From the NCBI GenBank assembly GCA_964543765.1, contig CAZIZI010000002.1:11153-75152 (forward strand): 64,000 nucleotides of DNA, in the 5' to 3' direction. Within the stretch, counting starts at the first letter, position 1. Each line of letters starts with the position of its first letter. Below the pieces are notes generated by a model. The model was given only the letters and a program-made list of their open reading frames with translations, was not told the DNA's origin and searched no databases. Shown here piece by piece: positions 527-22,939 of the stretch. Source of the stretch: an uncultured Thermodesulfobacteriota bacterium. Lineage in GTDB: Bacteria; Desulfobacterota; B13-G15. A program made the translations under genes and the position numbers.

Positions 527-1306
527 ATGACTCACCATTATCAAAACATTTTATATGAAATAAAGGATCAGGTTGCTAGAATCGTGATTAACAGGCCTCC
601 TTATAACGTGTTAGATATACCCACAATGCGCGAGATGGTAGATGCTTTAAAGGATGTAAGGGCTCGTCAGAAGGAGGTGAAGGTTCTGCTTATTACCAGT
701 GCAGGTGAGAAGGCCTTTTCCACTGGTGTGGACGTGAAGGATCATATGGGTGACAAGATGGAAGAGATGTTAGAGGTCTTTCATGATATTTTTCGAGTTA
801 TGGCGACCCTGGAGATTCCTACGGTGGCGGCGGTGAGGGGACACGTATTAGGAGGAGGTTGTGAGGTGGTTATGTTCTGTGATATGGTAATAGCCAGCGA
901 ATCGGCCAAGCTCGGACAGCCCGAGATAAAAGTAGGGGTTTATCCTCCGGTTGCGAATTCTTATTTGCCGAGGATTATACCGATGAAAAAGGCCATGGAG
1001 TTAATCCTTACCGGTGACGTGATCTCGGCCAGAGAAGCCGAAAAGTTGGGTCTCGTTAACGTGGTGGTACCCGATGATAAGTTTGAGGAAGAGGTGGAGA
1101 AGTTCCTTAAGAGGCTTACTGAAAAGAGCGGAATAGTGTTGAGGATTACCAAGAGGGCCATTTTAGCCAGTTTAAATGTTGATTTTGAAACCGCCCTTCA
1201 AAATAACGAATTGATTTATAAATACGCCTTGATGAAGACCCATGATGCTAATGAAGGACTTGAAGCATTTGTGCAAAAGAGGCAGCCACAATGGAAGAAC
1301 GAGTAA
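527..1306 (+). CDS. enoyl-CoA hydratase/isomerase (crotonase) family protein
   Basis: 259 aa. Crotonase-fold motifs (AAVRGHVLGGGCEV, oxyanion-hole region). RBS aaaggaggg upstream of the ATG. Confidence 0.85.
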   Translation: MTHHYQNILYEIKDQVARIVINRPPYNVLDIPTMREMVDALKDVRARQKEVKVLLITSAGEKAFSTGVDVKDHMGDKMEEMLEVFHDIFRVMATLEIPTVAAVRGHVLGGGCEVVMFCDMVIASESAKLGQPEIKVGVYPPVANSYLPRIIPMKKAMELILTGDVISAREAEKLGLVNVVVPDDKFEEEVEKFLKRLTEKSGIVLRITKRAILASLNVDFETALQNNELIYKYALMKTHDANEGLEAFVQKRQPQWKNE

Positions 1307-2076
1307 TCACCGTAGGCATTGATGTGGGATCTATCACTACTGAAGCCCTTGTTTATGAACCACAAAGGGGAATCCTCGGGTATTCGATACTTCTTACCGG
1401 GGGTTCGAGTTATGAAGCGGCTTCTTTAGCTTTAGAAAAGGCTTTGATATTTTCAGGGATTAAGAGGGATGAGGTTAAGAGGATAGTAGCTACCGGTGCT
1501 GGACGAGGGATAGTTGATTTTGCTCACAAAAAAGTCACGGAGATAACTTGTTTGGCCCGAGGGGTTCATCACCTCTTTCCGGAAGCGAGGACCGTCATTG
1601 ACATTGGCGGACAGGATACCAAGGTTATAAGGATTAATGAAAAAGGGCAAGTCGTGGAGTTTGATATGAACGACAAATGTGCCGCGGGGACCGGCCGGTT
1701 TTTAGAAGTTATGGCAAGAGCTTTAGGAGTAGAACTTGATAAAATGGGAGAGATATCCCTTCGGGCCAAAAAGGACTTAAGCATATCCAGCATATGCACC
1801 GTTTTTGCTGAAAGTGAAGTAGTCTCGCTGGTCTCTCAAGGCGAACAGGTAGAGGAAATACTCCGAGCAGTTCATAAGGCCATAGCGAAAAGAACCGTTG
1901 GGCTCCTGGAGCGCATAGGTGGAGCCAACCCCCAAGTGGTGATGACCGGAGGTGTGGCGAAGAATATTGGCGTTGTGAGGGCATTGGAAGAAGAGATCAA
2001 AATGCCTTTGACGGTTTACTTTGAGCCACAGATAGTATGCGCTTTGGGAGCCGCCCTTTTGGCCCAAGAGGCTTAA
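1291..2076 (+). CDS. CoA-substrate-specific enzyme activase (BadF/BadG/BcrA/BcrD / HgdC family ATPase)
   Basis: 261 aa. N-terminal ITVGIDVGSITTEALV actin-like ATPase motif and DKCAAGTGRFLE, as in HgdC/BcrAD activators. Overlaps the crotonase gene by 16 nt. Confidence 0.8.
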   Translation: MEERVITVGIDVGSITTEALVYEPQRGILGYSILLTGGSSYEAASLALEKALIFSGIKRDEVKRIVATGAGRGIVDFAHKKVTEITCLARGVHHLFPEARTVIDIGGQDTKVIRINEKGQVVEFDMNDKCAAGTGRFLEVMARALGVELDKMGEISLRAKKDLSISSICTVFAESEVVSLVSQGEQVEEILRAVHKAIAKRTVGLLERIGGANPQVVMTGGVAKNIGVVRALEEEIKMPLTVYFEPQIVCALGAALLAQEA

Positions 2077-3484: not shown

Positions 3485-3832
3485 GGGGGCGAAAAGGGTT
3501 CGACGGGGGTAAGGAGAAAGGAGAAAGCATGCCGAGGTCCCACTCCTCGTTAAACAGTGGGGTAAACACAAGTGCCGACTCTTATGAGTATGCCTTGGCT
3601 GCCTAAGTAGCAGCCACGTCCTATGAGATTAGCTCATGGGTCTCATAGGGCGTTATGAACATGAGCTAAGCCCTTGCTGAGGCTCATAGGCAAGGGTGAT
3701 ACTAGATGAGCTAGTCAAGAAGCAGTCCTGCCTGTGGGACGCTTCTTGGCGAAAGTTAAACACAGGCTAAGCATGTAGATGTCCCTTTCGAATTACCCTC
3801 GGACGCGGGTTCGATTCCCGCCGCCTCCACCA
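3485..3832 (+). ncRNA. ssrA: tmRNA (ssrA), ~348 nt. The tag ORF GCC GAC TCT TAT GAG TAT GCC TTG GCT GCC TAA (3574-3606) encodes A-D-S-Y-E-Y-A-L-A-A.
   Basis: 5' GGGGGCG...GGUUCGACGGGG and 3' GGACGCGGGUUCGAUUCCCGCCGCCUCCACCA (tRNA-Ala-like acceptor/T-arm with G3:U wobble and CCA). Internal ...YALAA* tag reading frame. Confidence 0.9.
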
Positions 3833-3913
3833 AATTTATCGTTGACGAAATATTCTTAAAATTGTTAAATATTGCCAATGGATTTTCCTAAAATCGAACG
3901 TTTTTGAAAAAAA

Positions 3914-3940
3914 CTTTCTCCTGAGGAGAAAGAATTTTTA
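3914..3940 (+). terminator. rho-independent terminator downstream of ssrA
   Basis: Perfect 8-bp stem ctttctcc/ggagaaag with a 3-nt loop, followed by aattttta. Confidence 0.6.
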
Positions 3941-3967
3941 CTATTTTTTCTTTTCCTTCCCAAACCT

Positions 3968-6935
3968 GTGACAATAGATTTGCTCAGTTCAGCCACCGGT
4001 ATTCTAGTAACTCGTATTTTGAACGTGATGGAAAAATTTAAAAGGAGGGGGTTTGTCCTTGAAAGGAAAGATTTAGGGCGAGGAGTATATGCGATTAAGG
4101 ATTCTTTGAGATGGAGGGAAGCGAAAGACTCACTCTCTTCTGAAGAATTTTCCCTGTTTGTGGAGCGTTTGACAAATTTTTATGAGCAGAAAGATACAAG
4201 AGACGAAGAAACGAAAATAATTTTAGCAGAGTTATATAAATACACTTCGATTAACTTAGAACGTTTAGAGATTATAAAAGAAGTAGCCGATTTGTTTAAT
4301 AAAGGTCCTAATAAATTAAAAGCTGTTGAATACTATGATTGCATTATTAAATATTTTGAAAAGAAAGAACCTCGTACCGAAAAAGAAATTGAGCTATTTC
4401 TGGAAAGTATTATAGCAAAAACTTTTACATTGATGCATAAAATGGCAGCTCAACAGCAGATTGACCTATTAAAAAAAGCAAAAGATATAGCGGAGAAAAA
4501 TAATCTTTTTGAGAAGTTAGCTTTAATAAGCTTACGTTTAGCGAGAGCTTACCAGGATCTTGGTTTATATCAGGAATCTTCCAAATTTATTGAAAAATTC
4601 ATCCGGTTCTCAAAATATATTGAAGATATTAAACGTATAAAGTTGGCTTCCCATTGTTTGAGTGAATATTATGTTTGGAAAGGCAGATTTAAAGAAGCTA
4701 TCAGTTGTTATGAAAAACTAATAGGCAATATTGAAGAGTTCGAAGATGATGATAACGCTCTTATGGCAACACAGTTAATAGGTTTTACTCATGTGTTATG
4801 TGGTAGAGTTTCCCGTGGATTAGGAATGATTGAGGCAGTGATGAACAAGGCCCGCAGCTTAGGTTATGAACAAGTTGTTAATTATTGTCATCAAGCATAT
4901 GCCATATCTTTTTTAACATTACAAAAAATTGAGGAAGCGAAACCCCATGTTGAGGTTCTTTTGTCGTTTCCGGAAGAGGTTTTGGGTGACATTCTCTATT
5001 GGGCTGTTCTGATTCACAAGGCTTACATTTTGTGTCTTGAAGGGGATTTGGAGAGTTCATTTTCGCTTTTGAAAAAGGCGATGGAGTTTCAATTTAAGAA
5101 AAACAGAATTTTTACTCCCTATCCGTGGCTGTTTGAGACAGTTCGCATCTTGGAGAGCAAAGGTTTTTGGGATCAGGATATAAATTTGGAGAGGATGATT
5201 CAGCGCTTTATGGAACTGGATGATGTTTATATTCGTGGTGTAGTCCTGCGATATAGGGGTTTAAAATTTTTAGAAAATGGAGATGAGCGAGCTTTAGGTT
5301 GTCTTCTGAGCAGTGAAAGGTATTTGAGATATGTCGGGGCGGAGGTGGAATTAGCTAAAACAAGACTCTGGTTGGGCAAGTATTATCTGGCTAAAAATGA
5401 GGTAAAGAAGTCAAAACCTTACTTAGAAAAGGCGTGGGAGGTATTTTCTGCAGTTCAATCATCCCTTTTCCCTCCAGAGTTAATAAGTTTAGTTTCTCCT
5501 CAACAACACGCTCAAGCGATTATCAATAGAATAATAAAACTCACCGAAAACCTGGGAGGCGGTAAAGATGCCCTTTCTTTTTTGGAAGAGGTTTTAAACA
5601 CAGCCATGGATATTACCTTAGCTATGAGGGGTAGCATTTTGAGAAATATTCAGGAGGATTTGACCATTATAGTGAGCAGAAATGTATATCCCGAGACATT
5701 TTGGCAGGTGGTTTTAAAACTTATTTGATGGAGGCCGTTTTAAGAGGAGCGGAGGTTGTGAAGAGGGCGAAGGAGAGCGAGAAGGGCCCCTTTTTGATCA
5801 TACCAATGAAAGTTAGTGGTAAAAGTTGGGGATGTCTTTACTTGGAAGGAAGGGTTGATAACGAGGATTTTTCGCCTGATATTGTTCTGTTTGTAAAGAT
5901 GTTATGTGTTCAAGCAGCATTGGTTTTAAATGCTCTAACCTTACAAGAAGAGTTTGAGAAACAGCAACAAATCCTGACTCCTGAATTTCCTGAGGATGAA
6001 ATTTCCATAATCGGAGAATCGCCAGCTATAAAGAGGGTAATAGAACAAATAAAACAAGTAGCACCAACGGATGCAACGGTTTTAATTTTAGGAGAAACGG
6101 GCGTTGGAAAAGAGCTTGTAGCGCGTACTATACACGCTAAAAAGTACTCGGAGAAATGGGCCTTTTATAGCGGTTAACTTAGCTGCTATTCCCCAAGAGC
6201 TTATCGCGAGTGAGCTTTTTGGCCATGAGAGGGGAGCTTTTACAGGGGCTTATGAAAGGCAAAGAGGATTACTCGAACTTGCAGACGGGGGGACTGTGTT
6301 TTTTGATGAGATCGGAGATTTGCCGTTGGCAATTCAAGTAAAACTCCTAAGAGTGTTAGAGGAAGGGGTTTTTACAAGGCTTGGAAGTGCAAAACCTATA
6401 AAATCGAATTTTCGCATTATTGCTGCTACGAACAAGAATTTGGGGGAAGAAGTAAAAAAGGGTAACTTTAGACAAGATCTTTTTTATAGGTTAAATGTGT
6501 TTCCCATTTATATTCCCCCTTTAAGAGAGAGGAAGGAGGATATAATTCCGCTTGCTTTTTATTTTTTAAAAAGTTTAGCGAAAAGTATGGCAAAAAATCC
6601 GAAACATTTCCAATTTAGAATTGAGCAAATTATTAAATTATCATTGGCCGGGAAATGTAAGAGAATTGAAGCACGTCATCGAAAGAGCTGTTATTTCATC
6701 CAGCGGTTCAACTATAAACTTTGTATTTGATATTTCTTTGAATAAAACACAAGTCGAATCAAAGGAGGTTGTAAAAACCCTCGCCGAAATAGAAAAGGAG
6801 CATATAGAAAAGGTTTTGAGTTTGACCGGTTGGCGCGTGAGTGGCACGAAAGGAGCGGCTAATTTATTAGGAGTAAAACCCTCCACTCTTAGATTTAGAA
6901 TGAAAAAACTAGGTATAACACGTCCTTGCGTTTAA
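3968..6935 (+). pseudogene. sigma-54-dependent transcriptional activator with a long N-terminal TPR-like helical sensor, GAF, AAA+ and Fis-type HTH domains. Interrupted by at least 3 frameshifts (ORF pieces 3968-5728, 5701-6177, 6296-6730, 6621-6935).
   Basis: The GAF domain is split across the 3968 and 5701 ORFs. AAA+ motifs: GESPAIKRV...GETGVGKEL / (frameshift) / [11 protein letters not shown]...[13 protein letters not shown]...[14 protein letters not shown]...VRVIAATN / (frameshift) / [19 protein letters not shown]-terminal HTH AANLLGVKPSTLRFRMKKLGI. Restoring one A in gagaaatggg gives ...[11 protein letters not shown]. Confidence 0.75.
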
Positions 6936-7005
6936 AATTTAAAAAATTTGGCAAAATTTTGCGCCTTTTTTAAATTACCAGGAATTAAAGGATAAAAATT
7001 TTATG

Positions 7006-7020
7006 TGGCACGATTGTTGA
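7006..7020 (+). promoter_or_regulatory. candidate sigma-54 (-24/-12) promoter for the 7061 operon
   Basis: TGGCACGattgTTGA matches TGGCACG-N4-TTGC spacing with a C-to-A change at -12. Lies ~40 nt upstream of ATG 7061 and its RBS aaggcggaaggagg. The 12-bp palindrome gcaaaattttgc at 6951-6962 is a possible activator site. Confidence 0.45.
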
Positions 7021-7060: not shown

Positions 7061-9649
7061 ATGCAAAAATATAGAAAGCTTCTTGAACCCCATTATATAG
7101 GGAAGGTAAGGACGAGAAATCGCATTATAAAAACTGGTGCGGCCATGAACTATTGGCATAAGGATGATACGAAGATGGACCCTAAGGCTCTATCCTTTTA
7201 CGAAAATCTTGCCCGAGGAGGTGTTGGTCTTCTTGTGGTGGAGTCGCCTATTGTGGATTATCCCTTGGGAGGCCGATGGTCCAATAGGTATAGATTGGAT
7301 GAAGACATTTTTATCGAAGGAATGGCCCAACTTGTAGAGGTTATGCACAAGCACGGTTGTCCTACTTTCATGTTAATGTGGCACGATGGGCCTTGGCAAA
7401 ATCCCTTATTTCCGGATGTTCCTCCCTTATACGATGGTCCCCCCGTAGGTTCGTATCCCTTAAACCTTCCTACTCCGCTTGATTTCCATAGGGACATCCC
7501 TAGGCAGTTAAGTGTTGCGGAGATAGAGGACATTATAGATAAATTCGCATCCGCTGCCCTTAGAGCCAAAAAGGCTGGATTTGATGGAGTGGAGATAAAT
7601 GCGGCAAGTAGTCATCTTTTTCATAATTTTCTCTCGCCCTTTTGGAATCGAAGAGAAGATGAATATGGAGGTAATACCGAAAACAGAGCAAGGATTTTAA
7701 TCAGAACGGTAAAGGAAATCAAAAACAGAGCAGGTAAGGATTTCCCGGTTTCAGTCATTATAAACGCCATAGAGATGGGAAGGGCTTTGGGAATGGATGA
7801 TAATCAATGTCTTACCTTTGAAGAGGCAAAGAAAATAGCCCTTCTTTTACAGGAGGCAGGGGTTGATGCTATCCATGTGCGAAGTCATTGGCTCGGGTAT
7901 CACGTAGGCGGGTTTTTACCAGATTATCTCTTTTACCCGGAGCCACCTGTTAGGAAGTTTCCGGAGCTCTATAATTGGAGGGAGAGAGGAAGAGGAGCTA
8001 ACATTTATTTGGCAAAAGAATTAAAGAAAATCTTATCCATTCCCATCATAGTTGTGGGTAAGATCGATCCTCCGCTTGGAGAACAAATTCTTCAACGGGG
8101 TTACGCTGACTTTATAGCGATGAATCGGCGACTTCTCGCTGATCCAGAACTTCCTCGAAAATTGGCTGAAGGAAGAGAGGATGAAATAGCTCCCTGTACT
8201 GCCTGTGGAACTCGTTTGGATCAAAGCAAAGGGATGCAAAGGCGGTGTAGGATAAACGCCACAATGGGCAAAGAAGAGTTCCTTATTAAAAAAGCCGAGA
8301 AGAAAAAAGAGTTCTCATTGTGGGAGGAGGGCCTGCGGGAATGGAAGCATCAAGAGTAGCGGCTTTAAGAGGACATGAGGTGATATTGGTGGAAAAGGAA
8401 AATAGGTGGGTTATTGCCCTTAGCTTCCTTGATAAAAGGATTAGAAATAGAGGATTTGTCAGCTATAATAAAGTACTACAAAATAACTTTAAAAAATTAG
8501 GAGTTAAAATAATCACAAAAAAGGAAGCTGATACAAATTTCGTTAGCACTATAAAACCAGACGTAATCATTTTAGCATGTGGTGGTAAATTTCGGACTCC
8601 AGAAACTATTACTTCAAAAAAGAAAAAGATTATAACTGCTCCAGAACTTCATAAAAAAAGCGAAAATATTCCTTAGAATATTCGGCCCCAGATTTTTAGG
8701 ATGGTTAACAAGGTTTTGGCTCCCTATGGGCAAAAAGGTTGCCATAGTCGGAGGATCACTTCAAGGATGCGAGCTTGCAGAGTTTCTCGTGAAAAGGAAT
8801 AGAGAGGTTACAATAATTGAAGAATCAGGAAAAATAGGGGAAGGAGTAGTTGATTTTCGTTTAGCTTTACTATTGGATTGGTTCTCAAAAAAGGGAGTAA
8901 AGATTTACAAAAATGCAAAAGTCGAAGAAATTAATGATGAAGGTGTTGTAATAAATCAAAATAATCAGCAGATATTAGTTCCTGCTGATACGATTATTAT
9001 ACTTTCTCCTTTATTACCAAATATCGAATTATACAATTCATTTAAAAGATATGTAAAAGAAATATACGCTATAGGTGATTGTAAAGAACCAAGTTTAATA
9101 GTTGATGCAATACACCAAGCTTGGGAAATTGTAAGACATACCATGACCATAGAAGATCTTCAAAGAAAAATAGTAGAACTTGAACAAAAAATAAAAGAAT
9201 TAGAAAGTAGAGTTCAGATTTTAGAGGATATTAATGAGATAAAAGAACTACAACGTCGATATGTAGATGCTTTAATATGCACTGAATGGGATGAATGTGC
9301 TGAATGTTTTTCGGAGGATGCGGTAGTTGATGTATACTTGCATAAACCTGTGCATGGAAAGGAAAATATTCGTCGGTGGTTTAAAGAAGAACTTTCCAAA
9401 ACTCATGCAGGGAAAGAGGGAGATTTTGTAGTGCATCCCATTGTAAAGGTTGAAGGTGATAAAGCCAAAGGAAGGTGGTTGCTTTATATGATGTACATGT
9501 ATCCGCGGACAGGTCAATCATTGTTTTGGGTTCAGGGGTATTACAAAAACGAATATGTGAGGGAAAAAGGGAAATGGAAGATAAGCCTTATGACTTGGAC
9601 TGAGCGTTTAGGATTACCTGGAGGAGGTCCCCCTACTGGTCTTTGGTAA
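7061..9649 (+). pseudogene. NADH:flavin oxidoreductase (OYE TIM-barrel + 4Fe-4S + FAD/NAD(P) domains, as in 2,4-dienoyl-CoA reductase or BaiCD/BaiH enoate reductases) fused to a C-terminal coiled coil and a SnoaL/NTF2-like domain. Fragmented into ORFs 7061-8359, 8320-8676 and 8726-9649.
   Basis: OYE motifs in the first ORF. GGGPAGMEAS FAD-binding GxGxxG at 8320. Second Rossmann GKKVAIVGGSLQGCELAEFL at 8726. NTF2-like C-terminus (RRYVDALICTEWDE...GKWKIS). Lesions: A6 run ~8296-8301, in-frame TAG 8674-8676, A5 run ~8730-8735. Confidence 0.75.
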
Positions 9650-9656
9650 TGGTGAG

Positions 9657-11703
9657 ATGGGAGAGCTAAAAGTTTTCATTAACGGTAGGGAAGTTAAGGG
9701 TAAGGAAGGGAGTACCATTTTAGAGACGGCTCTCGGAGCGGGAATTTATATTCCCTATTTATGTCATCATCCTAACCTCCCTCCCATAGGGGAGTGTGGA
9801 TTATGTGTGGTTCGAGTTAATGGGATGGGGTTTGTTAATGCATGTGATACTTTAGTTGAGGAAGTGATGAAGATTGTAACCGAAGACGAGGAGATTGCGT
9901 CTCTTAGGCGAGAAAGGCTTACCGGTTTATTGATGTCACATCCTTTGGAATGCATAGGCTGTTGGAAATATCTCAAATGTGAACTTCAAGCTTTAAAGCA
10001 ATACGTCGGAATTAATCGAGTTGAGGTTTTAAAAGGGCGTCCGAGGTTCATAGAGATTGAGGAAGATAATCCTCTCTTTGAATATGATCCACATAAATGT
10101 GTTCTTTGCAAAAGATGTGTTAGAGCCTGTAAAGACTTGAGGGGATTGGGGATTTTAGAGGTAAAGGAAAAAGACGGAGTCCGATACATATTTACTCGTT
10201 CGGATTTACCGCTGGCTGAGGAGGGATGTAAGTTTTGTGGTTTATGTGTAGAAGTATGTCCTACAGGAGCTCGGAGGGATAAGGTAGAAATAAATACAAT
10301 GGAAGATAATAGAAAAAGGACATTACTTCCTTGTAAATACAATTGTCCACTTGAAATAGATATACCGCTTTTCGTTCGACTCATTAAAAGGGGGATTACG
10401 ATAAGGCCTTAAGAGTTATAAAAGAAAAAACTCCTTTGGTTGAAGTGTTAGGTCATATTTGTACCCATCCCTGTGAGGATGCTTGTAGGCGTAATCATTT
10501 AAGTGAATCCATTTGCGTTCGAGAACTGAAGAAATTTGTCGCTCAAAGGGCTTTTTATACCTCTTCAGTTAGGAAAGACAAGGGAAAAAGGGTCGCTATA
10601 ATTGGCTCCGGCCCAGCTGGTTTAACAGCGGCTTATTTTCTTAGGGTTTTAGGATATAGGGTTACCCTCTTTGAGCAGATGGCATTTTTGGGAGGTATGT
10701 TGAAGATAGGGATACCTTTTTACAGGTTACCTCGGCGGGTAGTGGATAAGGAGATTGAAGAAATTCTCAAATTGGGCATTAAGGTTGAACTAAAAAACGC
10801 GTGGAGAATTTGGAAGACCTTTTGATCAAAGGTTTTTCGGCAGTAATAATAGCCATAGAAACCCAGCGGCCTATAGTGCCGGATTTAGTGAGGTGGAGGA
10901 AAATTAAAGATGTTCACTTAGGGCTTGATTTTTTACGAGCTTTTAACTTGGGTGAAGGAGTAAAATTAAGGCAAAAAGTTGCGATAATCGGAGGAGGTGC
11001 TAGTGCTTTCGATTGCGCAAGGGTCGCTTTAAGACAAGGAGCTTCGGAGGTCCATATCTTTTGTTTGGAAGAGTTTTCCGAAATGCGCGTTAATAAAGAG
11101 GACCTTGAAGAAGCACTTTTGGAAGGAGTAGCCATTCACAATCATAAAGCGCTTGTTCATTTAGATGAAGTATCTGATAAGCTCCAATTGGTTTTCAGAG
11201 ATGTGGAAAGTTTTGAATTTGATGAATTGGGAAGGCTCGACCTGAAAACCATTCCGGGATCAGAAAGATCTTTTTTCCTTCGAAGGAGTGATATTTGCCA
11301 TAGGACAGATTCCGGAAGTTCCCTTGGGATTCAAGGTTAAGCTTAAGCCATGGGTACCATTGAGGTAGATCCCTTTAGCCTTATGACTTCTAGAGAAGGA
11401 ATTTTCGCTTGTGGTGATGTGGTGACTGGGACAAGGTCAGTAGCAGAGGCCTCTGCGATGGGAAGAAGAGCAGCTTTAAGTGTGGACGAGTTTTTGGGAG
11501 GAGATGGTTTGAAGGAATTAAAAGATCTTCAATATGTGCCTACATTCTTTTCCGAAAAGAAGGGAGGATTTGCATATTTAAGAAGACCCAAAGGGGAGTT
11601 TAGTATAAAAGAGGCCACTTATGAATCAAGTCGTTGTTTGGAATGTGACCTTAGGTTCCAACTAATGGAGGTGAAGTTCTGGCCAGCATATGGAAAGCCA
11701 TGA
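9657..11703 (+). pseudogene. 2Fe-2S ferredoxin + 4Fe-4S dicluster + GltD-like FAD/NAD(P)H oxidoreductase fusion (NfnB / glutamate synthase small-subunit-like). Fragmented into ORFs 9657-10412, 10436-10825, 10801-11340 and 11350-11703.
   Basis: CxxC...C 2Fe-2S motif, two CxxCxxCxxxCP motifs, then the GltD signature CTHPCEDAC and AIIGSGPAGL. Frame breaks at G5 (~10391-10395; adding one G gives ...IKRGDYDKALRVIKEK...), at A5/A6 (~10789-10794), at a T6 run (~11270) and at a G3 run (~11350). Confidence 0.7.
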
Positions 11704-13139
11704 AGCTCATTGAGACCGAAGTAGCCATTATAGGAGCTGGAGCAGCGGGACTTGCAGCTTCAATCGCTGCAGCAGAAAGGGGGGGTATCGGTCGCAGTTT
11801 TCGAAAAAGGAGCCACCACCGGCGGGACAGCTAATATGGGAATGGGATTGTTTGCGGTCGAAAACCGTCACCAGAGATTTCGGCAGATGGGACCAAGTCG
11901 CGATGAAGCTTTTAAGGTTTTTATGGAGTTTATCCATTGGCGTGTGGATGCCCGTTTGGTTAGGGTTTATATCGATAGATCCGGCGACACGATCCATTGG
12001 CTCGAAAACATGGGCGTTGAGTTTTTAGAGCCTATGGCTTATTTCCCGGGAGGATGGCCTACATGGTACATAGTGAAACCTGGCGGTTCTCCCGGTTGTG
12101 CTGCTAATATGTGTAAAGCTATGACTTATAAAGCAAAGTCACTTGGTGTAAGTTTTCATTTTAAAACACCCGCTAAAAGATTGATAAGGAAGGGTAATAG
12201 AATTATAGGATTTATCGCAGAAACACCAGAAGGTGAAGAGCTTTTAGTAAGAGCAGGTACGGTTATTATTGCTACAGGAGGGTTTGGAGACAATCCCGAT
12301 TGGATAAAGAAATATACCGGATACGAACACGAAAAGGATCTCATTACCTTCAGGGTTTCAGGTCTTAAAGGTGACGGAATAAGGATGGCGTGGGAAGTGG
12401 GCGCTCTTTCCACTCCTATGAACATGCAACTCATTTATATTGTACCAGGCGAAGTTCATCCTAAATTAGCGGAGGCTTTTAGGCAACCTCACTTATTAGT
12501 CAACTTAAGAGGGGAGAGATTTGTTAACGAAGGAATAATATTTAATTCAACGTTTATAGGGAACGCAATATCGCAACAACCCAAAAGAATAGCCTTTATG
12601 ATCTTTGATGAGAAAATTAAAGAGCACATGAAGAATGTGGGTTTAGATTTTATTCATGTTCCTTTTCCGTATTTTAAAGTAGAGGACTTCGATGATTCGT
12701 TTTTTGATTCGTTAAAGAGATGTAAAGAGACTCTATTTGTGGCTAATTCTATCTCAGAACTGGCTCAAAAAGCGGGCATAGACGAGAAGGGGTTAGCGAG
12801 GCAAGTGGAAGAATATAACGAATTTTGTAGTTGCGGGTTTGATCCCGTTTTTAACAAAAACCATCGTTATTTAAGGCCTATAAAAAACCTCCTTTTTATG
12901 GCGCGAAGCTTATGCCCGCATCTTACGAGAGCTTGGGAGGTATAAAGATAAACTACAAAATGGAAGTAATAGGTGAAGATTATAATCCATTGAGAGGGCT
13001 ATATGCAGCAGGTACAGATGTTAATTCCATAAATGGTGATTCCTATGTTTTCATTTTGCCTGATAATACCATGGGGTTCGCGGTGAATTCTAGTCGAATA
13101 GCAGGGGAAAACGCTGCTGATTTTGTAAAAGGCAGATGA
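11701..13139 (+). pseudogene. FAD-binding dehydrogenase of the fumarate reductase/succinate dehydrogenase flavoprotein (FAD_binding_2) family, 3-oxosteroid 1-dehydrogenase (KstD)-like. Fragmented into 11701-11832, 11752-12945 and 12912-13139.
   Basis: N-terminus MKLIETEVAIIGAGAAGLAASIAAAERG breaks at a G7 run (aaagggggggtatc, ~11786-11792). C-terminal piece GLYAAGTDVNS...RIAGENAA is typical of the family. Second break at T5 (cctttttatg, ~12893-12897); T6 restores ...NLLFYGAKLMPASYE.... Confidence 0.7.
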
Positions 13140-13274
13140 TATAAAAATTCCCGTCCCCTTTCTAGCTTTTACAATTTTTCTCCTAAGAGGCGGTATAGAC
13201 GATTTAAAAGAAAAGGCAATAAAATTTTAAAAAATCCATGTTGCTCATTATACGAAAGCAGGGGGAGTTAAGTT

Positions 13275-14585
13275 ATGTTCGAAAGGTTGAGCGAACGCCT
13301 ACAGCTTGTTTTCAATAAATTGAGGAAAAAGGGCAAATTAACGGAAGAGGACGTGATGGGGGCTTTAAGGGAAGTTCGGTTGGCCCTTCTCGAGGCGGAT
13401 GTGCATTATAAAGTGGCCAAGGAATTTCTCGAAAGAGTAAAAGAAAGGGCAGTGGGGCAAGAGGTTATGAAAAGTCTAACCCCTGTTCAGCAGGTCATAA
13501 AAATCGTAAAAGAAGAGCTTGTCTCTCTTATGAGTGGTGATACTTCCCTTAATTTAAAAGGAAACCCTGCGATTTTGATGCTCGTAGGTCTTCAAGGCTC
13601 AGGAAAGACCACCACTGCAGCGAAGCTTGCCTTAAAGTTTAAAAGAGAAGGTTATAGACCTGTAGTTTTACCCCTCGATTCGAGAAGGCCTGCTGCTTCG
13701 GAACAGCTTGAAAAATTGGCGGAAAAGATAGGGGTTGTGTGTTATAAAAGTTCCTCTTCTCCTTTTGAACTTTTCGAAAGCGTTCTAAAGGAAACGAGAC
13801 AAAAGGGCTTTTCTCCTCTGATAGTTGATACTGCCGGGACTTTACATATAGAGCGGGAGCTTATGGAGGAGCTAAGGGAGTTAAAAGAAAAGATTAAACC
13901 GAATGAGGTGCTCCTTGTAGTTGACTCCATGACCGGACAAGATGCCGTGAACGTGGCTCAAGGGTTTGAGAAAGGAGTAGGAATTACCGGCATTATATTG
14001 ACGAAACTCGATGGCGATGCTCGAGGAGGAGCAACCCTTTCCATTAAAGCCGTGACCGGAAAACCCATAAAACTCATAGGAATCGGCGAGGGGCTTGAAG
14101 CACTTGAACCATTTTATCCGGACCGGATCGTTTCGCGCATTTTAGGCATGGGAGATGTGCTCACTTTGATAGAGAAGACCCAAAGAGTAATAGAGGAAGA
14201 GGAAGCAAAAAAACTGGAGAAAAAGCTCAAAGAAGACCGCTTCGATTTCGAGGATTTTCGAGAATATTTGCGGATGTTGAAGAAGCTGGGGGATTTGGAA
14301 AGTTTGTTAAAATTAATCCCAGGCCTTCCCAAGGTTCTTAAAAATGGGGTAAAAGTGGATTATACTAAGATGCGTAGGATGGAAGCTATAATAAATTCGA
14401 TGACTATTGAAGAAAGACGAAAACCGCATATAATAAACGCTAGTCGGAAAAAAAGAATTGCGAAAGGTAGTGGCACAAGCATACAGGAAGTTAATCAATT
14501 GTTGAGGCAATTTGAGATGATAAGAAAACTGGTGAAGGAAATGAAGACAACGAAAGGAAGAAGATGGTTTGGGGTTTTTCAGTAA
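13275..14585 (+). CDS. ffh: signal recognition particle protein Ffh (SRP54)
   Basis: 436 aa. NG domain (GLQGSGKTTT, DTAGT, LTKLDGDARGG) and methionine-rich M domain. Confidence 0.95.
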   Translation: MFERLSERLQLVFNKLRKKGKLTEEDVMGALREVRLALLEADVHYKVAKEFLERVKERAVGQEVMKSLTPVQQVIKIVKEELVSLMSGDTSLNLKGNPAILMLVGLQGSGKTTTAAKLALKFKREGYRPVVLPLDSRRPAASEQLEKLAEKIGVVCYKSSSSPFELFESVLKETRQKGFSPLIVDTAGTLHIERELMEELRELKEKIKPNEVLLVVDSMTGQDAVNVAQGFEKGVGITGIILTKLDGDARGGATLSIKAVTGKPIKLIGIGEGLEALEPFYPDRIVSRILGMGDVLTLIEKTQRVIEEEEAKKLEKKLKEDRFDFEDFREYLRMLKKLGDLESLLKLIPGLPKVLKNGVKVDYTKMRRMEAIINSMTIEERRKPHIINASRKKRIAKGSGTSIQEVNQLLRQFEMIRKLVKEMKTTKGRRWFGVFQ

Positions 14586-22544: not shown

Positions 22545-22748
22545 TTACTTTTCGACCTTTTCCCCTCCATCAGCTGCCGTCAAACCAAGCTCAACTGGAA
22601 GTTCCCCAAAGGCCAAGGCCTTGATTGCGGTGAACCAACCTTCCACCGTTTTAATAAGAGGATAAATCACTACAAGCCCTAAAAAACCTCCAACTAAAAC
22701 TCCCACCATAATTCCCAATGCTATCTTTAATCCTAACATCTCCCTCAC
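22545..22748 (-). CDS. small hydrophobic membrane protein (67 aa), function unknown
   Basis: Strong SD (aaggaggtga) 6 nt upstream of the ATG on the minus strand. One long TM segment. Confidence 0.5.
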   Translation of the reverse strand: MREMLGLKIALGIMVGVLVGGFLGLVVIYPLIKTVEGWFTAIKALAFGELPVELGLTAADGGEKVEK

Positions 22749-22939
22749 CTCCTTTCTCTTATGTCCGCCCTATTAGGCGCAACTGTCGTGCCAAAACTCA
22801 AAAAGGCAATTCTTCCCAAAAGGAACCTCAAAACTTTAACAGACCCTTTCAAAAGCTCTGGTTATCTGTGGAGAAAATTTCTACAATTAAGTATAATTTT
22901 TCGACAGAAAACTCACCTTAAAAGCTTTCTTGGCATAAC

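What the first reader, a model, noticed from the sequence alone, without database searches (positions are those of the whole stretch)
3968..6935. Unusually large sigma-54 activator: ~520-aa TPR-like helical N-terminal module + GAF + AAA+ + HTH (reconstructed ~990 aa)
The ORF-track protein 3968-5728 is not a separate TPR protein. Its C-terminus (...[35 protein letters not shown]) is the N-half of a GAF domain. The C-half ([39 protein letters not shown]...LVLNALTL) opens the 5701 ORF. A long helical-repeat sensor fused in front of GAF-AAA+ is an atypical enhancer-binding-protein architecture and may sense a signal (ligand or partner protein) for the downstream reductase operon.
Basis: partly seen in the sequence, partly recalled or inferred. 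Interest (0 to 1): 0.6.

Follow-up and report, generated by a model that had tools for sequence, protein, structure and literature searches.

The report
Decayed giant sigma-54 activator gene
The four neighbouring reading frames are the wreck of one gene for an unusually long (1019-residue) sigma-54 transcription activator with a winged-helix, TPR and GAF sensor arm; relatives keep it intact, but in this hot-spring bacterium it and the reductase operon it should switch on are dead.

Summary
ORFs 3968-5728, 5701-6177, 6296-6730 and 6621-6935 are pieces of one gene. The architecture is winged helix, about 13 TPR-like hairpins, GAF, sigma-54 AAA+ domain, then Fis-type HTH.

Three corrections:
- The true start is ATG 3878, not GTG 3968.
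- The gene carries four single-base homopolymer frameshifts (5699-5704, 6139-6143, 6568-6572, 6592-6597), not just the one in the GAF domain, plus a TGA at a conserved Trp codon (3905-3907).
- These lesions are real. Four independent metagenome assemblies of the same population (99.90-99.96% identical) share all of them, and some add further stop codons. About 54 kb of housekeeping sequence in the window shows no split genes.

The downstream four-gene ene-reductase operon, behind a conserved sigma-54 promoter at 7006-7020, is also decayed.

The sensor module defines a sizeable uncharacterised family: 165 clusters at E<=1e-10, mostly proteins of about 1040 aa from MAGs, with only generic annotation. 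So this is a fixed pseudogene of an undescribed sensor variant of a known regulator class. Interest is moderate.

The parts
3878..6935 (+). Whole pseudogene of the 1019-aa sigma-54 enhancer-binding protein (ATG 3878 to TAA 6933-6935).
   Evidence: After repair it aligns without gaps to intact P0178 and P0181 (1019 aa, 96.5%). It also aligns with P0001-P0008. Coordinates were checked.
3905..3907 (+). In-frame TGA replacing a conserved Trp codon (…IERF*KKLSPEEKEF…). It cuts off the first 30 codons.
   Evidence: Translation. The sister lineage reads MKSPKIERFWKKLSPEEKEF. Trp is conserved in homologues except P0003, which has Phe. All four other assemblies of this population share the TGA, with no difference at this site.
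3878..4126 (+). N-terminal winged-helix domain (about residues 1-83).
   Evidence: The AlphaFold model of P0002 shows four helices followed by two strands. Pfam gives only sub-threshold winged-helix matches: TrmB, Rrf2, RuvB_C and IclR, E 2e-4 to 0.1.
4139..5555 (+). TPR-like helical-repeat superhelix (about residues 88-560, roughly 26 helices).
   Evidence: Pfam TPR_12, TPR_8 and TPR_2, with TPR_MalT below threshold. The model built from the window's own sequence has pLDDT 92.6 and pTM 0.89. Foldseek finds TPR superhelices, including MalT domain III (1hz4), Rap (6t3h) and a STAND TPR protein (6mfv).
5555..5950 (+). GAF domain, split by frameshift 1.
   Evidence: GAF_2 covers 569-684 of P0002, profile 8-135 of 136. 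38 of 45 family members match GAF_2. The NifA model aligns from its GAF domain onwards in P0010, P0028 and P0087. The model shows a beta sheet at 582-659.
5699..5704 (+). Frameshift 1: one base missing (TTTTGG here, TTTTTGA in the sister lineage).
   Evidence: Shared by L009-L012.
6010..6720 (+). Sigma-54 interaction AAA+ domain plus lid. Walker A is GETGVGKE, the loop is GAFTGA, Walker B is DEIGD. Frameshifts 2 to 4 interrupt it.
   Evidence: Motifs are visible in the alignment. Foldseek matches NtrC1 1ny6 with TM 0.93 and 55% identity.
6139..6143 (+). Frameshift 2: one extra A (A5 here, A4 in the sister lineage).
   Evidence: Shared by L009-L012.
6568..6572 (+). Frameshift 3: one A missing (A5 here, A6 in the sister lineage).
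   Evidence: Shared by L009-L012.
6592..6597 (+). Frameshift 4: one A missing (A6 here, A7 in the sister lineage).
   Evidence: Shared by L009-L012.
6777..6915 (+). C-terminal Fis-type HTH_8 DNA-binding domain.
   Evidence: Pfam HTH_8, E 6e-10 and 1.6e-8.
6951..6962 (.). Palindrome GCAAAATTTTGC, a candidate activator-binding site 55 nt upstream of the -24 element.
   Evidence: Related GCAAAAT(T/G)TTG(C/T) elements lie 66-68 nt upstream of the -24 element in L002 and L004; L003 has GCAAAAT at 65 nt followed by a longer spacer before TTGC. Its role as a binding site is inferred, not tested.
7006..7020 (+). Sigma-54 type -24/-12 promoter TGGCACGATTGTTGA, 41 nt upstream of the first reductase gene.
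   Evidence: One mismatch to TGGCAC-N5-TTGC. The element keeps its position in L001/L015, L002, L003 and L004, starting 52-60 nt before the start codon.
7061..9136 (+). Pseudogene of the FadH/OYE-family Fe-S flavoenzyme (696 aa when intact).
   Evidence: Indels at about 8303 (-1), 8403 (-5), 8491 (-1) and 8653 (+1) relative to the intact sister copy. tblastn alignment. A conserved Cys is replaced (C385R). Nearest named families, all below cutoff, are bilirubin reductase, BaiCD and mycofactocin-system OYE.
9143..9649 (+). SnoaL_4-like gene, fused in frame to the preceding pseudogene by a 15-nt deletion at 9139 that removed the stop codon and the ribosome-binding site.
9657..11703 (+). Pseudogene of the 2Fe-2S/4Fe-4S plus GltD-like NAD(P)H oxidoreductase (672 aa when intact). 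It includes a frameshift in the A run 10792-10797 that the sister lineage shares.
   Evidence: Frame changes. The shared lesion is shown. Family matches.
11752..13140 (+). Pseudogene of an FAD_binding_2 flavoprotein (about 480 aa when intact). The nearest named family is vinyl phenol reductase VprA, below cutoff.

Best explanation
Window 3878-6935 is a genuine, population-fixed pseudogene of a one-component sigma-54 enhancer-binding protein of 1019 aa. Its domains are an N-terminal winged helix, about 13 TPR-like hairpins, GAF, a sigma-54 AAA+ ATPase and a Fis-type HTH.

How intact relatives most likely work (all steps in this paragraph are inferred):
- The protein binds through its HTH_8 domain near a GCAAAAT-n-TTGC palindrome.
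- When the winged-helix/TPR/GAF arm receives its signal, repression of the AAA+ domain is relieved.
- The AAA+ domains assemble into a ring and use ATP to open the sigma-54 promoter TGGCACGA-N3-TTG(A/T).
- That promoter lies in front of a four-gene operon encoding an OYE/FadH Fe-S flavoenzyme, a SnoaL-like protein, an Fe-S/GltD-like electron-input protein and a fumarate-reductase-like flavoprotein. Together these look like a set of C=C double-bond reductases.

In the window's lineage the regulon has decayed in steps. The Fe-S gene was already frameshifted in the ancestor shared with the sister lineage. The window lineage then lost the activator (TGA plus four homopolymer frameshifts) and the OYE gene, and the lesions continue to accumulate in individual strains.

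Shown here: the identity of the gene, its domains, the lesions and their reproducibility, the synteny and the promoter. Inferred: the nature of the signal, negative control by the sensor arm, and the binding site.
For: One gene:
- Intact orthologues exist at 989-1034 aa and at 1019 aa with no gaps.
- Domains are confirmed by Pfam and by high-confidence models (pLDDT 89.6 and 92.6).
- The AAA+ core superposes on NtrC1 at TM 0.93.

Real pseudogene:
- L009-L012 come from four different samples and pipelines. They are 99.90-99.96% identical over 21 kb and share every lesion.
- Some add new ones: TAC to TAA at 4552 in L010 and L011; GAA to TAA at 4205 and an extra G at 5255 in L009.
- Against the clean sister contig L015, gap columns number 4 in the activator, 23 in OYE-SnoaL and 34 in FeS-FAD2. 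There are none in 3.5 kb of upstream housekeeping genes and 2 in 3.65 kb downstream.
- Homopolymer density is the same inside and outside the island.
- The rest of the window shows no split genes on inspection of its ORFs.
- Non-homopolymer deletions of 5 nt and 15 nt are present.
- Derived amino-acid changes are skewed to the window lineage, 15 against 4, and hit invariant residues. OYE has C385R.

Stepwise decay:
- The sister lineage keeps the activator, OYE and SnoaL intact, but its FeS and FAD2 genes are fragmented in three assemblies.
- One FeS frameshift is identical in both lineages.

Link to the operon:
- The five-gene order is the same in the window, L001/L015, L002, L003 and L004.
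- The -24/-12 element is conserved.
- Distant family members also sit next to sigma-54-type promoters. In L008 a perfect TGGCACATTTGTTGC faces an SDR gene; L006 and L007 have similar elements.
Against: - No experiment exists for any family member.
- dN/dS between window and sister is still low: 0.25 for the activator and 0.20 for OYE. Substitution divergence in the activator (2.45%) is below that of flanking genes. Inactivation is therefore recent, and the relaxed-selection signal is modest (15 against 4, about p 0.02; OYE 14 against 10 is not significant).
- The candidate binding site is a single short AT-rich palindrome, and it is not identical across lineages.
- The -12 element is TTGA or TTGT rather than the consensus TTGC.
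- The window does not show whether the genome still has rpoN, although a perfect sigma-54 promoter at 22779-22793 suggests it does.
- Nothing identifies the signal.
Confidence: 0.82

Rival explanations
1. The gene is intact in the organism, and the frameshifts are homopolymer sequencing or assembly errors.
For: All four indels in the activator lie in A or T runs of 4-7 bases. L001, a low-quality contig containing Ns, has its own homopolymer errors at the N-terminus that the cleaner L015 lacks.
Against: - The same lesions appear in four other assemblies from different samples and pipelines that differ from the window by SNPs.
- No split genes were seen in about 54 kb of flanking sequence with equal homopolymer density.
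- The island also carries a TGG to TGA substitution, 5-nt and 15-nt deletions, C385R, and strain-specific nonsense substitutions.
Confidence: 0.04
2. The pieces are functional in their own right, either as a stand-alone TPR protein plus a short GAF-less activator, or joined by programmed ribosomal frameshifting.
For: The 586-aa fragment is deposited as a separate protein in NCBI. N-module hits of about 600 aa exist in metagenomes.
Against: - The AAA+ domain itself is cut into three frames, so no piece contains a complete ATPase.
- Recoding would have to happen four times and also read through a stop codon.
- Strains add further stop codons inside the TPR fragment.
- The roughly 600-aa homologues all end inside the GAF N-half, so they are truncations.
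- The target operon is also broken.
Confidence: 0.03
3. This rival concerns how the intact family works. The winged-helix/TPR arm is not a small-molecule sensor but a docking platform for a partner protein (partner switching, as with NifL-NifA or PspA-PspF) or for a peptide (as in Rap/RRNPP proteins).
For: - TPR superhelices usually bind peptides or proteins.
- The best structural matches are protein-binding TPRs (APC/C subunits, LGN/Pins, TSK, Rap).
- The most conserved stretch, …EEFEDDENALMATQLIGF…CGRVSRGLGMIEAV…, is a surface loop-and-helix region rather than an obvious pocket.
Against: - No conserved partner gene accompanies the activator across lineages. Only the enzyme genes are conserved.
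- MalT domain III, a sugar-binding TPR-like sensor, is also among the matches (1hz4, TM 0.58; TPR_MalT in 13 of 45 members).
- The adjacent GAF domain is a classical small-molecule binder.
Confidence: 0.3

Closest known systems
GAF-containing sigma-54 activators (NifA, NorR, FhlA)
   Same: GAF domain immediately before a Sigma54_activat AAA+ domain with the GAFTGA loop, and a C-terminal Fis-type HTH. The NifA model TIGR01817 aligns from its GAF domain through the AAA+ domain in family members, at 347-395 bits. The likely logic is the same, with the GAF domain repressing the ATPase until a signal arrives; this is known for NorR (PMC2941729) and only inferred here.
   Different: All scores fall below the equivalog cutoffs. 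About 560 extra N-terminal residues (winged helix plus about 13 TPR-like hairpins) precede the GAF domain. The GAF domain is short and divergent in the window's clade, matching Pfam only weakly. The target is an ene-reductase-type operon, not nif, nor or hyc.
MalT / STAND-type winged-helix plus TPR-like sensor arm
   Same: A winged helix is followed directly by a long TPR-like superhelix. There are Pfam TPR_MalT matches (13 of 45 members, best E 8e-11; 22.6 bits against a cutoff of 45 in the window). Foldseek matches MalT domain III (1hz4, TM 0.58) and a STAND TPR protein (6mfv).
   Different: There is no NACHT, NB-ARC or AAA_16 nucleotide-binding domain in front of the winged helix; the protein starts with it. 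The oligomerising ATPase is instead a C-terminal sigma-54 AAA+ domain, and the output domain is HTH_8 rather than LuxR. Structural similarity is at the level of generic TPR.
NtrC1 / DctD-type enhancer-binding AAA+ cores
   Same: The central domain is 49-55% identical and superposes at TM 0.91-0.93 with rmsd 1.3-2.0 A.
   Different: Those proteins are two-component response regulators with a receiver domain. This family has no receiver and looks like a one-component sensor-activator.
Gene decay of dispensable regulons in bacterial populations
   Same: Multiple independent inactivating lesions hit a regulator and its target operon. Some are ancestral, some lineage-specific and some still polymorphic.
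   Different: Nothing unusual. It is simply well documented here, because several assemblies of the same population are available.

Membership tests
Bacterial enhancer-binding protein (sigma-54 activator) | Sigma54_activat AAA+ domain with Walker A, Walker B and the GAFTGA sigma-54 contact loop. | tested here: met
[14 protein letters not shown] and DEIGD are present. 45 of 45 family members match. Structure matches NtrC1 at TM 0.93.
Bacterial enhancer-binding protein (sigma-54 activator) | C-terminal DNA-binding HTH (Fis type). | tested here: met
   HTH_8 E 6e-10 and 1.6e-8. 42 of 45 members match.
Bacterial enhancer-binding protein (sigma-54 activator) | A -24/-12 sigma-54 promoter at a plausible target. 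| tested here: met
   TGGCACGATTGTTGA at 7006-7020, conserved in position in four other lineages. The -12 element deviates from the consensus (TTGA or TTGT instead of TTGC).
Bacterial enhancer-binding protein (sigma-54 activator) | An uninterrupted coding sequence, meaning a functional member in this genome. | tested here: not met
   TGA at 3905-3907 plus four frameshifts, reproduced in L009-L012.
Bacterial enhancer-binding protein (sigma-54 activator) | ATP-dependent activation of sigma-54 RNA polymerase. | not testable with these tools
   This needs biochemistry on an intact orthologue.
GAF-regulated EBPs (NifA/NorR/FhlA type) | A complete GAF domain directly N-terminal to the AAA+ domain. 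| tested here: met
   GAF_2 covers 569-684 of P0002 (profile 8-135 of 136). 38 of 45 members match GAF_2 and 36 of 45 match GAF. The NifA model aligns from position 4-8 in P0010, P0028 and P0087.
GAF-regulated EBPs (NifA/NorR/FhlA type) | Equivalog-level similarity to a named member. | tested here: not met
   All NCBIfam scores are below their cutoffs, for example NifA 347-395 bits against 528.85 and NorR 321-363 against 476.
STAND / MalT-like signal-transduction ATPases | A NACHT, NB-ARC or AAA_16 nucleotide-binding oligomerisation domain upstream of the winged helix and sensor. | tested here: not met
   Family proteins begin 0-10 residues before the winged helix. Pfam finds no P-loop domain in the window's N-module fragment (residues 1-586).
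STAND / MalT-like signal-transduction ATPases | A MalT-type TPR-like sensor superhelix. | tested here: inconclusive
   TPR_MalT scores 22.6 bits against a cutoff of 45 in the window. 13 of 45 members match at E<=1e-3. 1hz4 gives TM 0.58 and rmsd 7.6 A amid many generic TPR hits.
Pseudogene | Frame-disrupting lesions relative to intact close orthologues, reproducible in independent data and confined to the locus. | tested here: met
   for the lesions and their reproducibility. for the flanking genes and equal homopolymer density.

The most novel reading that the evidence does not exclude
The winged-helix/TPR module is a STAND-derived (MalT-like) ligand-sensing arm transplanted in front of a GAF-AAA+ activator. 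That would create a previously undescribed class of one-component sigma-54 regulators. In this class the substrate of an adjacent C=C reductase operon (for example an unsaturated aromatic acid or vinyl-phenol-like compound) would be read by the TPR/GAF arm to license ring assembly. The window would then be a natural knockout of this system, caught during stepwise regulon loss in a hot-spring WOR-3 population.
Probability: 0.3. Interest if true: 0.55.

Novelty: new variant of a known kind. Interest (0 to 1): 0.35.

Why it matters
Sigma-54 activators are usually described with receiver, PAS, GAF, V4R or PRD sensor modules (for example PMC12316311). I found no open-access paper describing a sensor of about 560 residues made of a winged helix and TPR repeats placed in front of a GAF domain. 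Yet it defines at least 165 sequence clusters across Thermodesulfobacteriota, Syntrophia-like, Acidobacteriota and WOR-3 MAGs. It sits next to sigma-54 promoters that drive oxidoreductase genes.

Characterising one intact member would add a new input type to this regulator class. It might also reveal the substrate of an unassigned ene-reductase operon.

For annotation, the window shows how a decayed gene ends up deposited as several 'proteins', one of which looks like a stand-alone TPR protein. For this genome, the practical message is that both the regulator and its operon are non-functional.

Tried and rejected
- Sequencing error as the cause. I rejected this after finding the same lesions in four independent assemblies and none in flanking genes.
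- Genomic island integrated at the tmRNA gene. ssrA ends 45 nt before the gene, but no repeat of the tmRNA 3' end lies downstream (the longest match is an 11-mer inside a tRNA) and no integrase is present. In other lineages the cluster sits at other positions.
- Metal or redox sensing by conserved Cys and His residues in the N-module (SHC, LCGR, YCHQ). These are conserved only in the close clade, not across the 45-65-member family, where the near-invariant residues are mostly Gly, Tyr, Glu and Pro. I dropped the idea.
- A clearly defined upstream activator sequence. Only one short AT-rich palindrome is shared approximately. I kept it as a candidate only.
- A second sigma-54 promoter in TGGCAAAATTTTGC. 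The spacing is one base too short and it was not reported by the mismatch search.
- Literature searches for TPR-containing enhancer-binding proteins found nothing specific.
- The search of one genome per species found only five MAG relatives and no cultured organism. Cluster names are all generic.
Full report
**1. What is in the sequence**

Between 3968 and 6935 the + strand carries four overlapping or adjacent ORFs in three frames. Pfam assigns domains as follows:
- 3968-5728: TPR repeats.
- 5701-6177: the C-terminal half of a GAF domain plus the first 53 positions of Sigma54_activat.
- 6296-6730: the rest of Sigma54_activat and the start of the AAA+ lid.
- 6621-6935: the rest of the lid and a Fis-type HTH_8.

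Joined, they give full-length matches to Sigma54_activat (E 7e-72), AAA_lid_14 and HTH_8. The tmRNA gene lies immediately upstream (3485-3832). It is preceded by smpB and ftsY, and ffh follows the locus at 13275.

**2. It is one gene**

A search with the N-terminal 598 residues found an intact protein of 989 aa at 96% identity (P0001). It also found intact proteins of 1024-1034 aa at 44-57% identity with the same domains. The 90% cluster of the window's 586-aa fragment also holds two 1019-aa proteins (P0178, P0181). These begin MKSPKIERFWKKLSPEEKEF and align to my repaired 1019-aa sequence at 96.5% identity without a single gap.

In the intact homologue P0002, GAF_2 covers residues 569-684, almost the whole profile, and spans the point where the window changes frame.

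Hits of about 600 aa to the N-module all end inside the GAF N-half, so they are truncated rather than TPR-only proteins.

**3. Corrections to the observation**

Comparison with the sister-lineage contigs L001 and L015 shows exactly four single-base indels inside the gene:
- T run 5699-5704: one base missing.
- A run 6139-6143: one extra base.
- A run 6568-6572: one base missing.
- A run 6592-6597: one base missing.

A 24-nt stretch between the last two is read in a third frame. The gene also starts earlier than the ORF, at ATG 3878. The first 30 codons encode a segment conserved in all full-length relatives (…RFW..L…E…). In the window, TGA at 3905-3907 replaces the conserved Trp.

**4. Real pseudogene or artefact?**

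All four indels are in homopolymers, so error was a serious possibility. Five lines of evidence argue against it.

(a) Looking up the window's exact Ffh protein returned four other long contigs from different samples and assemblers. These are JGI 3300008019, JGI 3300022546, ENA ERZ27245635 and Logan SRR7539624. They are 99.90-99.96% identical to the window over 21 kb and differ from it by SNPs, so they are independent data. All share the TGA and all four frameshifts.

(b) Some carry additional inactivating changes. L010 and L011 have TAC to TAA at 4552. L009 has GAA to TAA at 4205 and an extra G at 5255.

(c) Against the clean sister contig L015, gap columns number 4 in the activator, 23 in OYE-SnoaL and 34 in FeS-FAD2. 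There are none in 3484 nt of upstream housekeeping genes and 2 in 3650 nt downstream. The remaining roughly 50 kb of the window holds long unbroken genes such as gyrA, relA, pheST and thrS. Homopolymer density is the same inside and outside the island.

(d) The island also has a 5-nt deletion and a 15-nt deletion that are not in homopolymers.

(e) Polarising amino-acid differences with outgroups gives 15 window-derived changes against 4 sister-derived in the activator. The window-derived changes include invariant positions (R188K, E292D, D604Y). OYE has C385R in a Cys-rich motif.

dN/dS between window and sister is still 0.25 (activator) and 0.20 (OYE), so inactivation is recent relative to the roughly 4% divergence.

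**5. Stepwise decay**

In three assemblies the sister lineage keeps the activator (1019 aa), OYE (696 aa) and SnoaL (168 aa) intact. Its Fe-S and FAD_binding_2 genes are fragmented in the same way in all three. A frameshift in the A run at window 10792-10797 is identical in both lineages (VELKN | RVENLEDLL), so it predates their split. The order of loss was therefore the electron-input and second flavoprotein genes first, then the activator and OYE in the window lineage.

**6. What the intact protein is**

The AlphaFold model of P0002 (65-sequence alignment, pLDDT 89.6, pTM 0.68) shows these regions:
- A four-helix, two-strand winged helix at 1-83.
- About 26 helices in TPR-like pairs at 88-580.
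- A small alpha/beta GAF domain up to about 696.
- A disordered linker.
- The AAA+ domain at 716-940.
- The HTH at 971-1014.

The model of the window's own N-module has pLDDT 92.6 and pTM 0.89. The AAA+ core superposes on NtrC1, FleQ and FlrC at TM 0.91-0.93 with 49-55% identity.

The N-module matches only generic TPR superhelices. Among bacterial proteins these are MalT domain III (1hz4, TM 0.58), a Rap regulator and a STAND TPR protein. By sequence it matches Pins/LGN and RapJ weakly. The first 80 residues give sub-threshold winged-helix matches.

A winged helix followed by a TPR-like sensor is the arrangement found in MalT-type STAND proteins (from my own knowledge). Here no NTPase domain precedes the winged helix, so this is a resemblance and not membership.

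**7. How large is the family?**

A full HMMER scan of 1.84 billion representatives with window 3968-5701 found 433 proteins at E<=1e-3, 165 at E<=1e-10 and 43 at E<=1e-30. Most are 1035-1060 aa with the module at about residues 30-605. Of 45 full-length members, 45 have Sigma54_activat, 42 HTH_8, 38 GAF_2, 37 TPR_12 and 13 TPR_MalT.

NCBIfam has no model for the N-module, and only the NifA, FhlA and NorR models match the C-terminal two-thirds, below their cutoffs. Named members are all MAG proteins called 'sigma 54-interacting transcriptional regulator', or 'transcriptional regulator with GAF, ATPase, and Fis domain / TPR repeat'. They come from WOR-3, Syntrophorhabdales and Deltaproteobacteria MAGs. 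The one-genome-per-species collection returned five MAG loci: Thermodesulfobacteriota, Syntrophaceae (two), Terriglobia and Pseudomonadota.

Full-text searches found no paper describing TPR-containing enhancer-binding proteins.

**8. Link to the operon**

The gene order is activator, OYE/FadH Fe-S flavoenzyme, SnoaL_4, 2Fe-2S/4Fe-4S/GltD-like protein, FAD_binding_2 flavoprotein. This order is the same in the window, L001/L015, L002, L003 and L004, even though the flanking genes differ.

The nearest named enzyme families, all below cutoff, are:
- Bilirubin reductase, BaiCD and mycofactocin OYE for the first gene.
- Vinyl phenol reductase VprA and flavocytochrome c for the last gene.
- HoxU/NuoG N-terminus plus GltD for the Fe-S protein.

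This looks like a C=C reductase set with its own NAD(P)H input.

A -24/-12 element, TGGCA(C/T)GA-N3-TTG(A/T), starts 52-60 nt before the first gene's start codon in every lineage; in the window it is at 7006-7020. A GCAAAAT(T/G)TTG(C/T) palindrome lies 55-68 nt further upstream in the window, L002 and L004, and in a looser form in L003. It is a candidate binding site only.

Distant relatives have other neighbours (SDR, LivK, enoyl-CoA hydratase-like and CoxS-like genes, judged from the sequences by eye, without a family search) but again sit next to sigma-54-type promoters. One is a perfect TGGCACATTTGTTGC facing an SDR gene in L008.

**9. Mechanism (inferred)**

By analogy with NorR, NifA and other GAF-regulated activators, the sensor arm probably holds the AAA+ domain inactive. 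A signal received by the TPR and/or GAF part would release it. Ring assembly and ATP hydrolysis would then open the sigma-54 promoter.

Whether the signal is a small molecule (MalT-like, substrate of the operon) or a partner protein or peptide (as TPRs often bind) cannot be decided. No conserved partner gene accompanies the activator, which mildly favours a small molecule.

**10. Verdict**

The object is a recently inactivated, population-fixed pseudogene of an uncharacterised but widespread sensor variant of sigma-54 activators. It sits within a regulon that is being lost stepwise. This is a new variant of a known kind, of moderate interest at the family level and low functional relevance for this genome.

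Noticed in passing
window 22779-22793 (-) and about 22545-22739 (-): A perfect sigma-54 consensus, TGGCACGACAGTTGC, lies about 27 nt upstream of an AGGAGGTG ribosome-binding site. A 64-aa hydrophobic ORF follows (MLGLKIALGIMVGVLVGGFLGLVVIYPLIK…), then an inverted repeat that looks like a terminator hairpin. This suggests sigma-54 is still used in this genome.
   Followed up: partly
window 9130-9150: A 15-nt deletion relative to the sister lineage removes the OYE stop codon and the SnoaL ribosome-binding site (AAGGAGGTG). The result is an in-frame fusion of the OYE C-terminus to SnoaL (…WEIVRHT|MTIEDLQ…).
   Followed up: partly
window about 8210-8220 (OYE residue 385): A Cys conserved in all four outgroups and the sister lineage is Arg in the window (CTACGTR). 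It lies in the Cys-rich motif that I take, from knowledge of FadH-type enzymes and not from any test here, to bind the Fe-S cluster.
   Followed up: no
window 10792-10797; L015 about 16940: The same A-run frameshift in the Fe-S/GltD-like gene is present in the window and in the sister lineage that is about 4% diverged. That gene was therefore already dead in their common ancestor.
   Followed up: yes
L015/L016/L017 15803-19400; L001 6194-9700: The sister lineage keeps the activator, OYE and SnoaL intact, but carries many frameshifts in the last two operon genes. The fragmentation is the same in three assemblies.
   Followed up: partly
window 3485-3832 and 13140-13275: In the window and sister lineages the five-gene cluster lies between ssrA and ffh. 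In L003 it lies between an MFS transporter and an MCP gene followed by ffh. In L002 it lies next to atpI/B/E and a CoA-disulfide-reductase-like gene; L004's flanks were not examined. The cluster moves as a unit, but no att-like repeat of the tmRNA 3' end was found.
   Followed up: partly
window 527-2076: An enoyl-CoA hydratase-like gene (527-1306) overlaps a BcrAD/BadFG-type activase ATPase gene (1291-2076), just upstream of ftsY. Any relation to the reductase operon was not examined.
   Followed up: no
L001 340-480: The metagenome contig L001 contains Ns and two extra homopolymer bases at the activator's N-terminus that the cleaner L015 lacks. This is why P0001 was called at 989 aa rather than 1019 aa.
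   Followed up: yes
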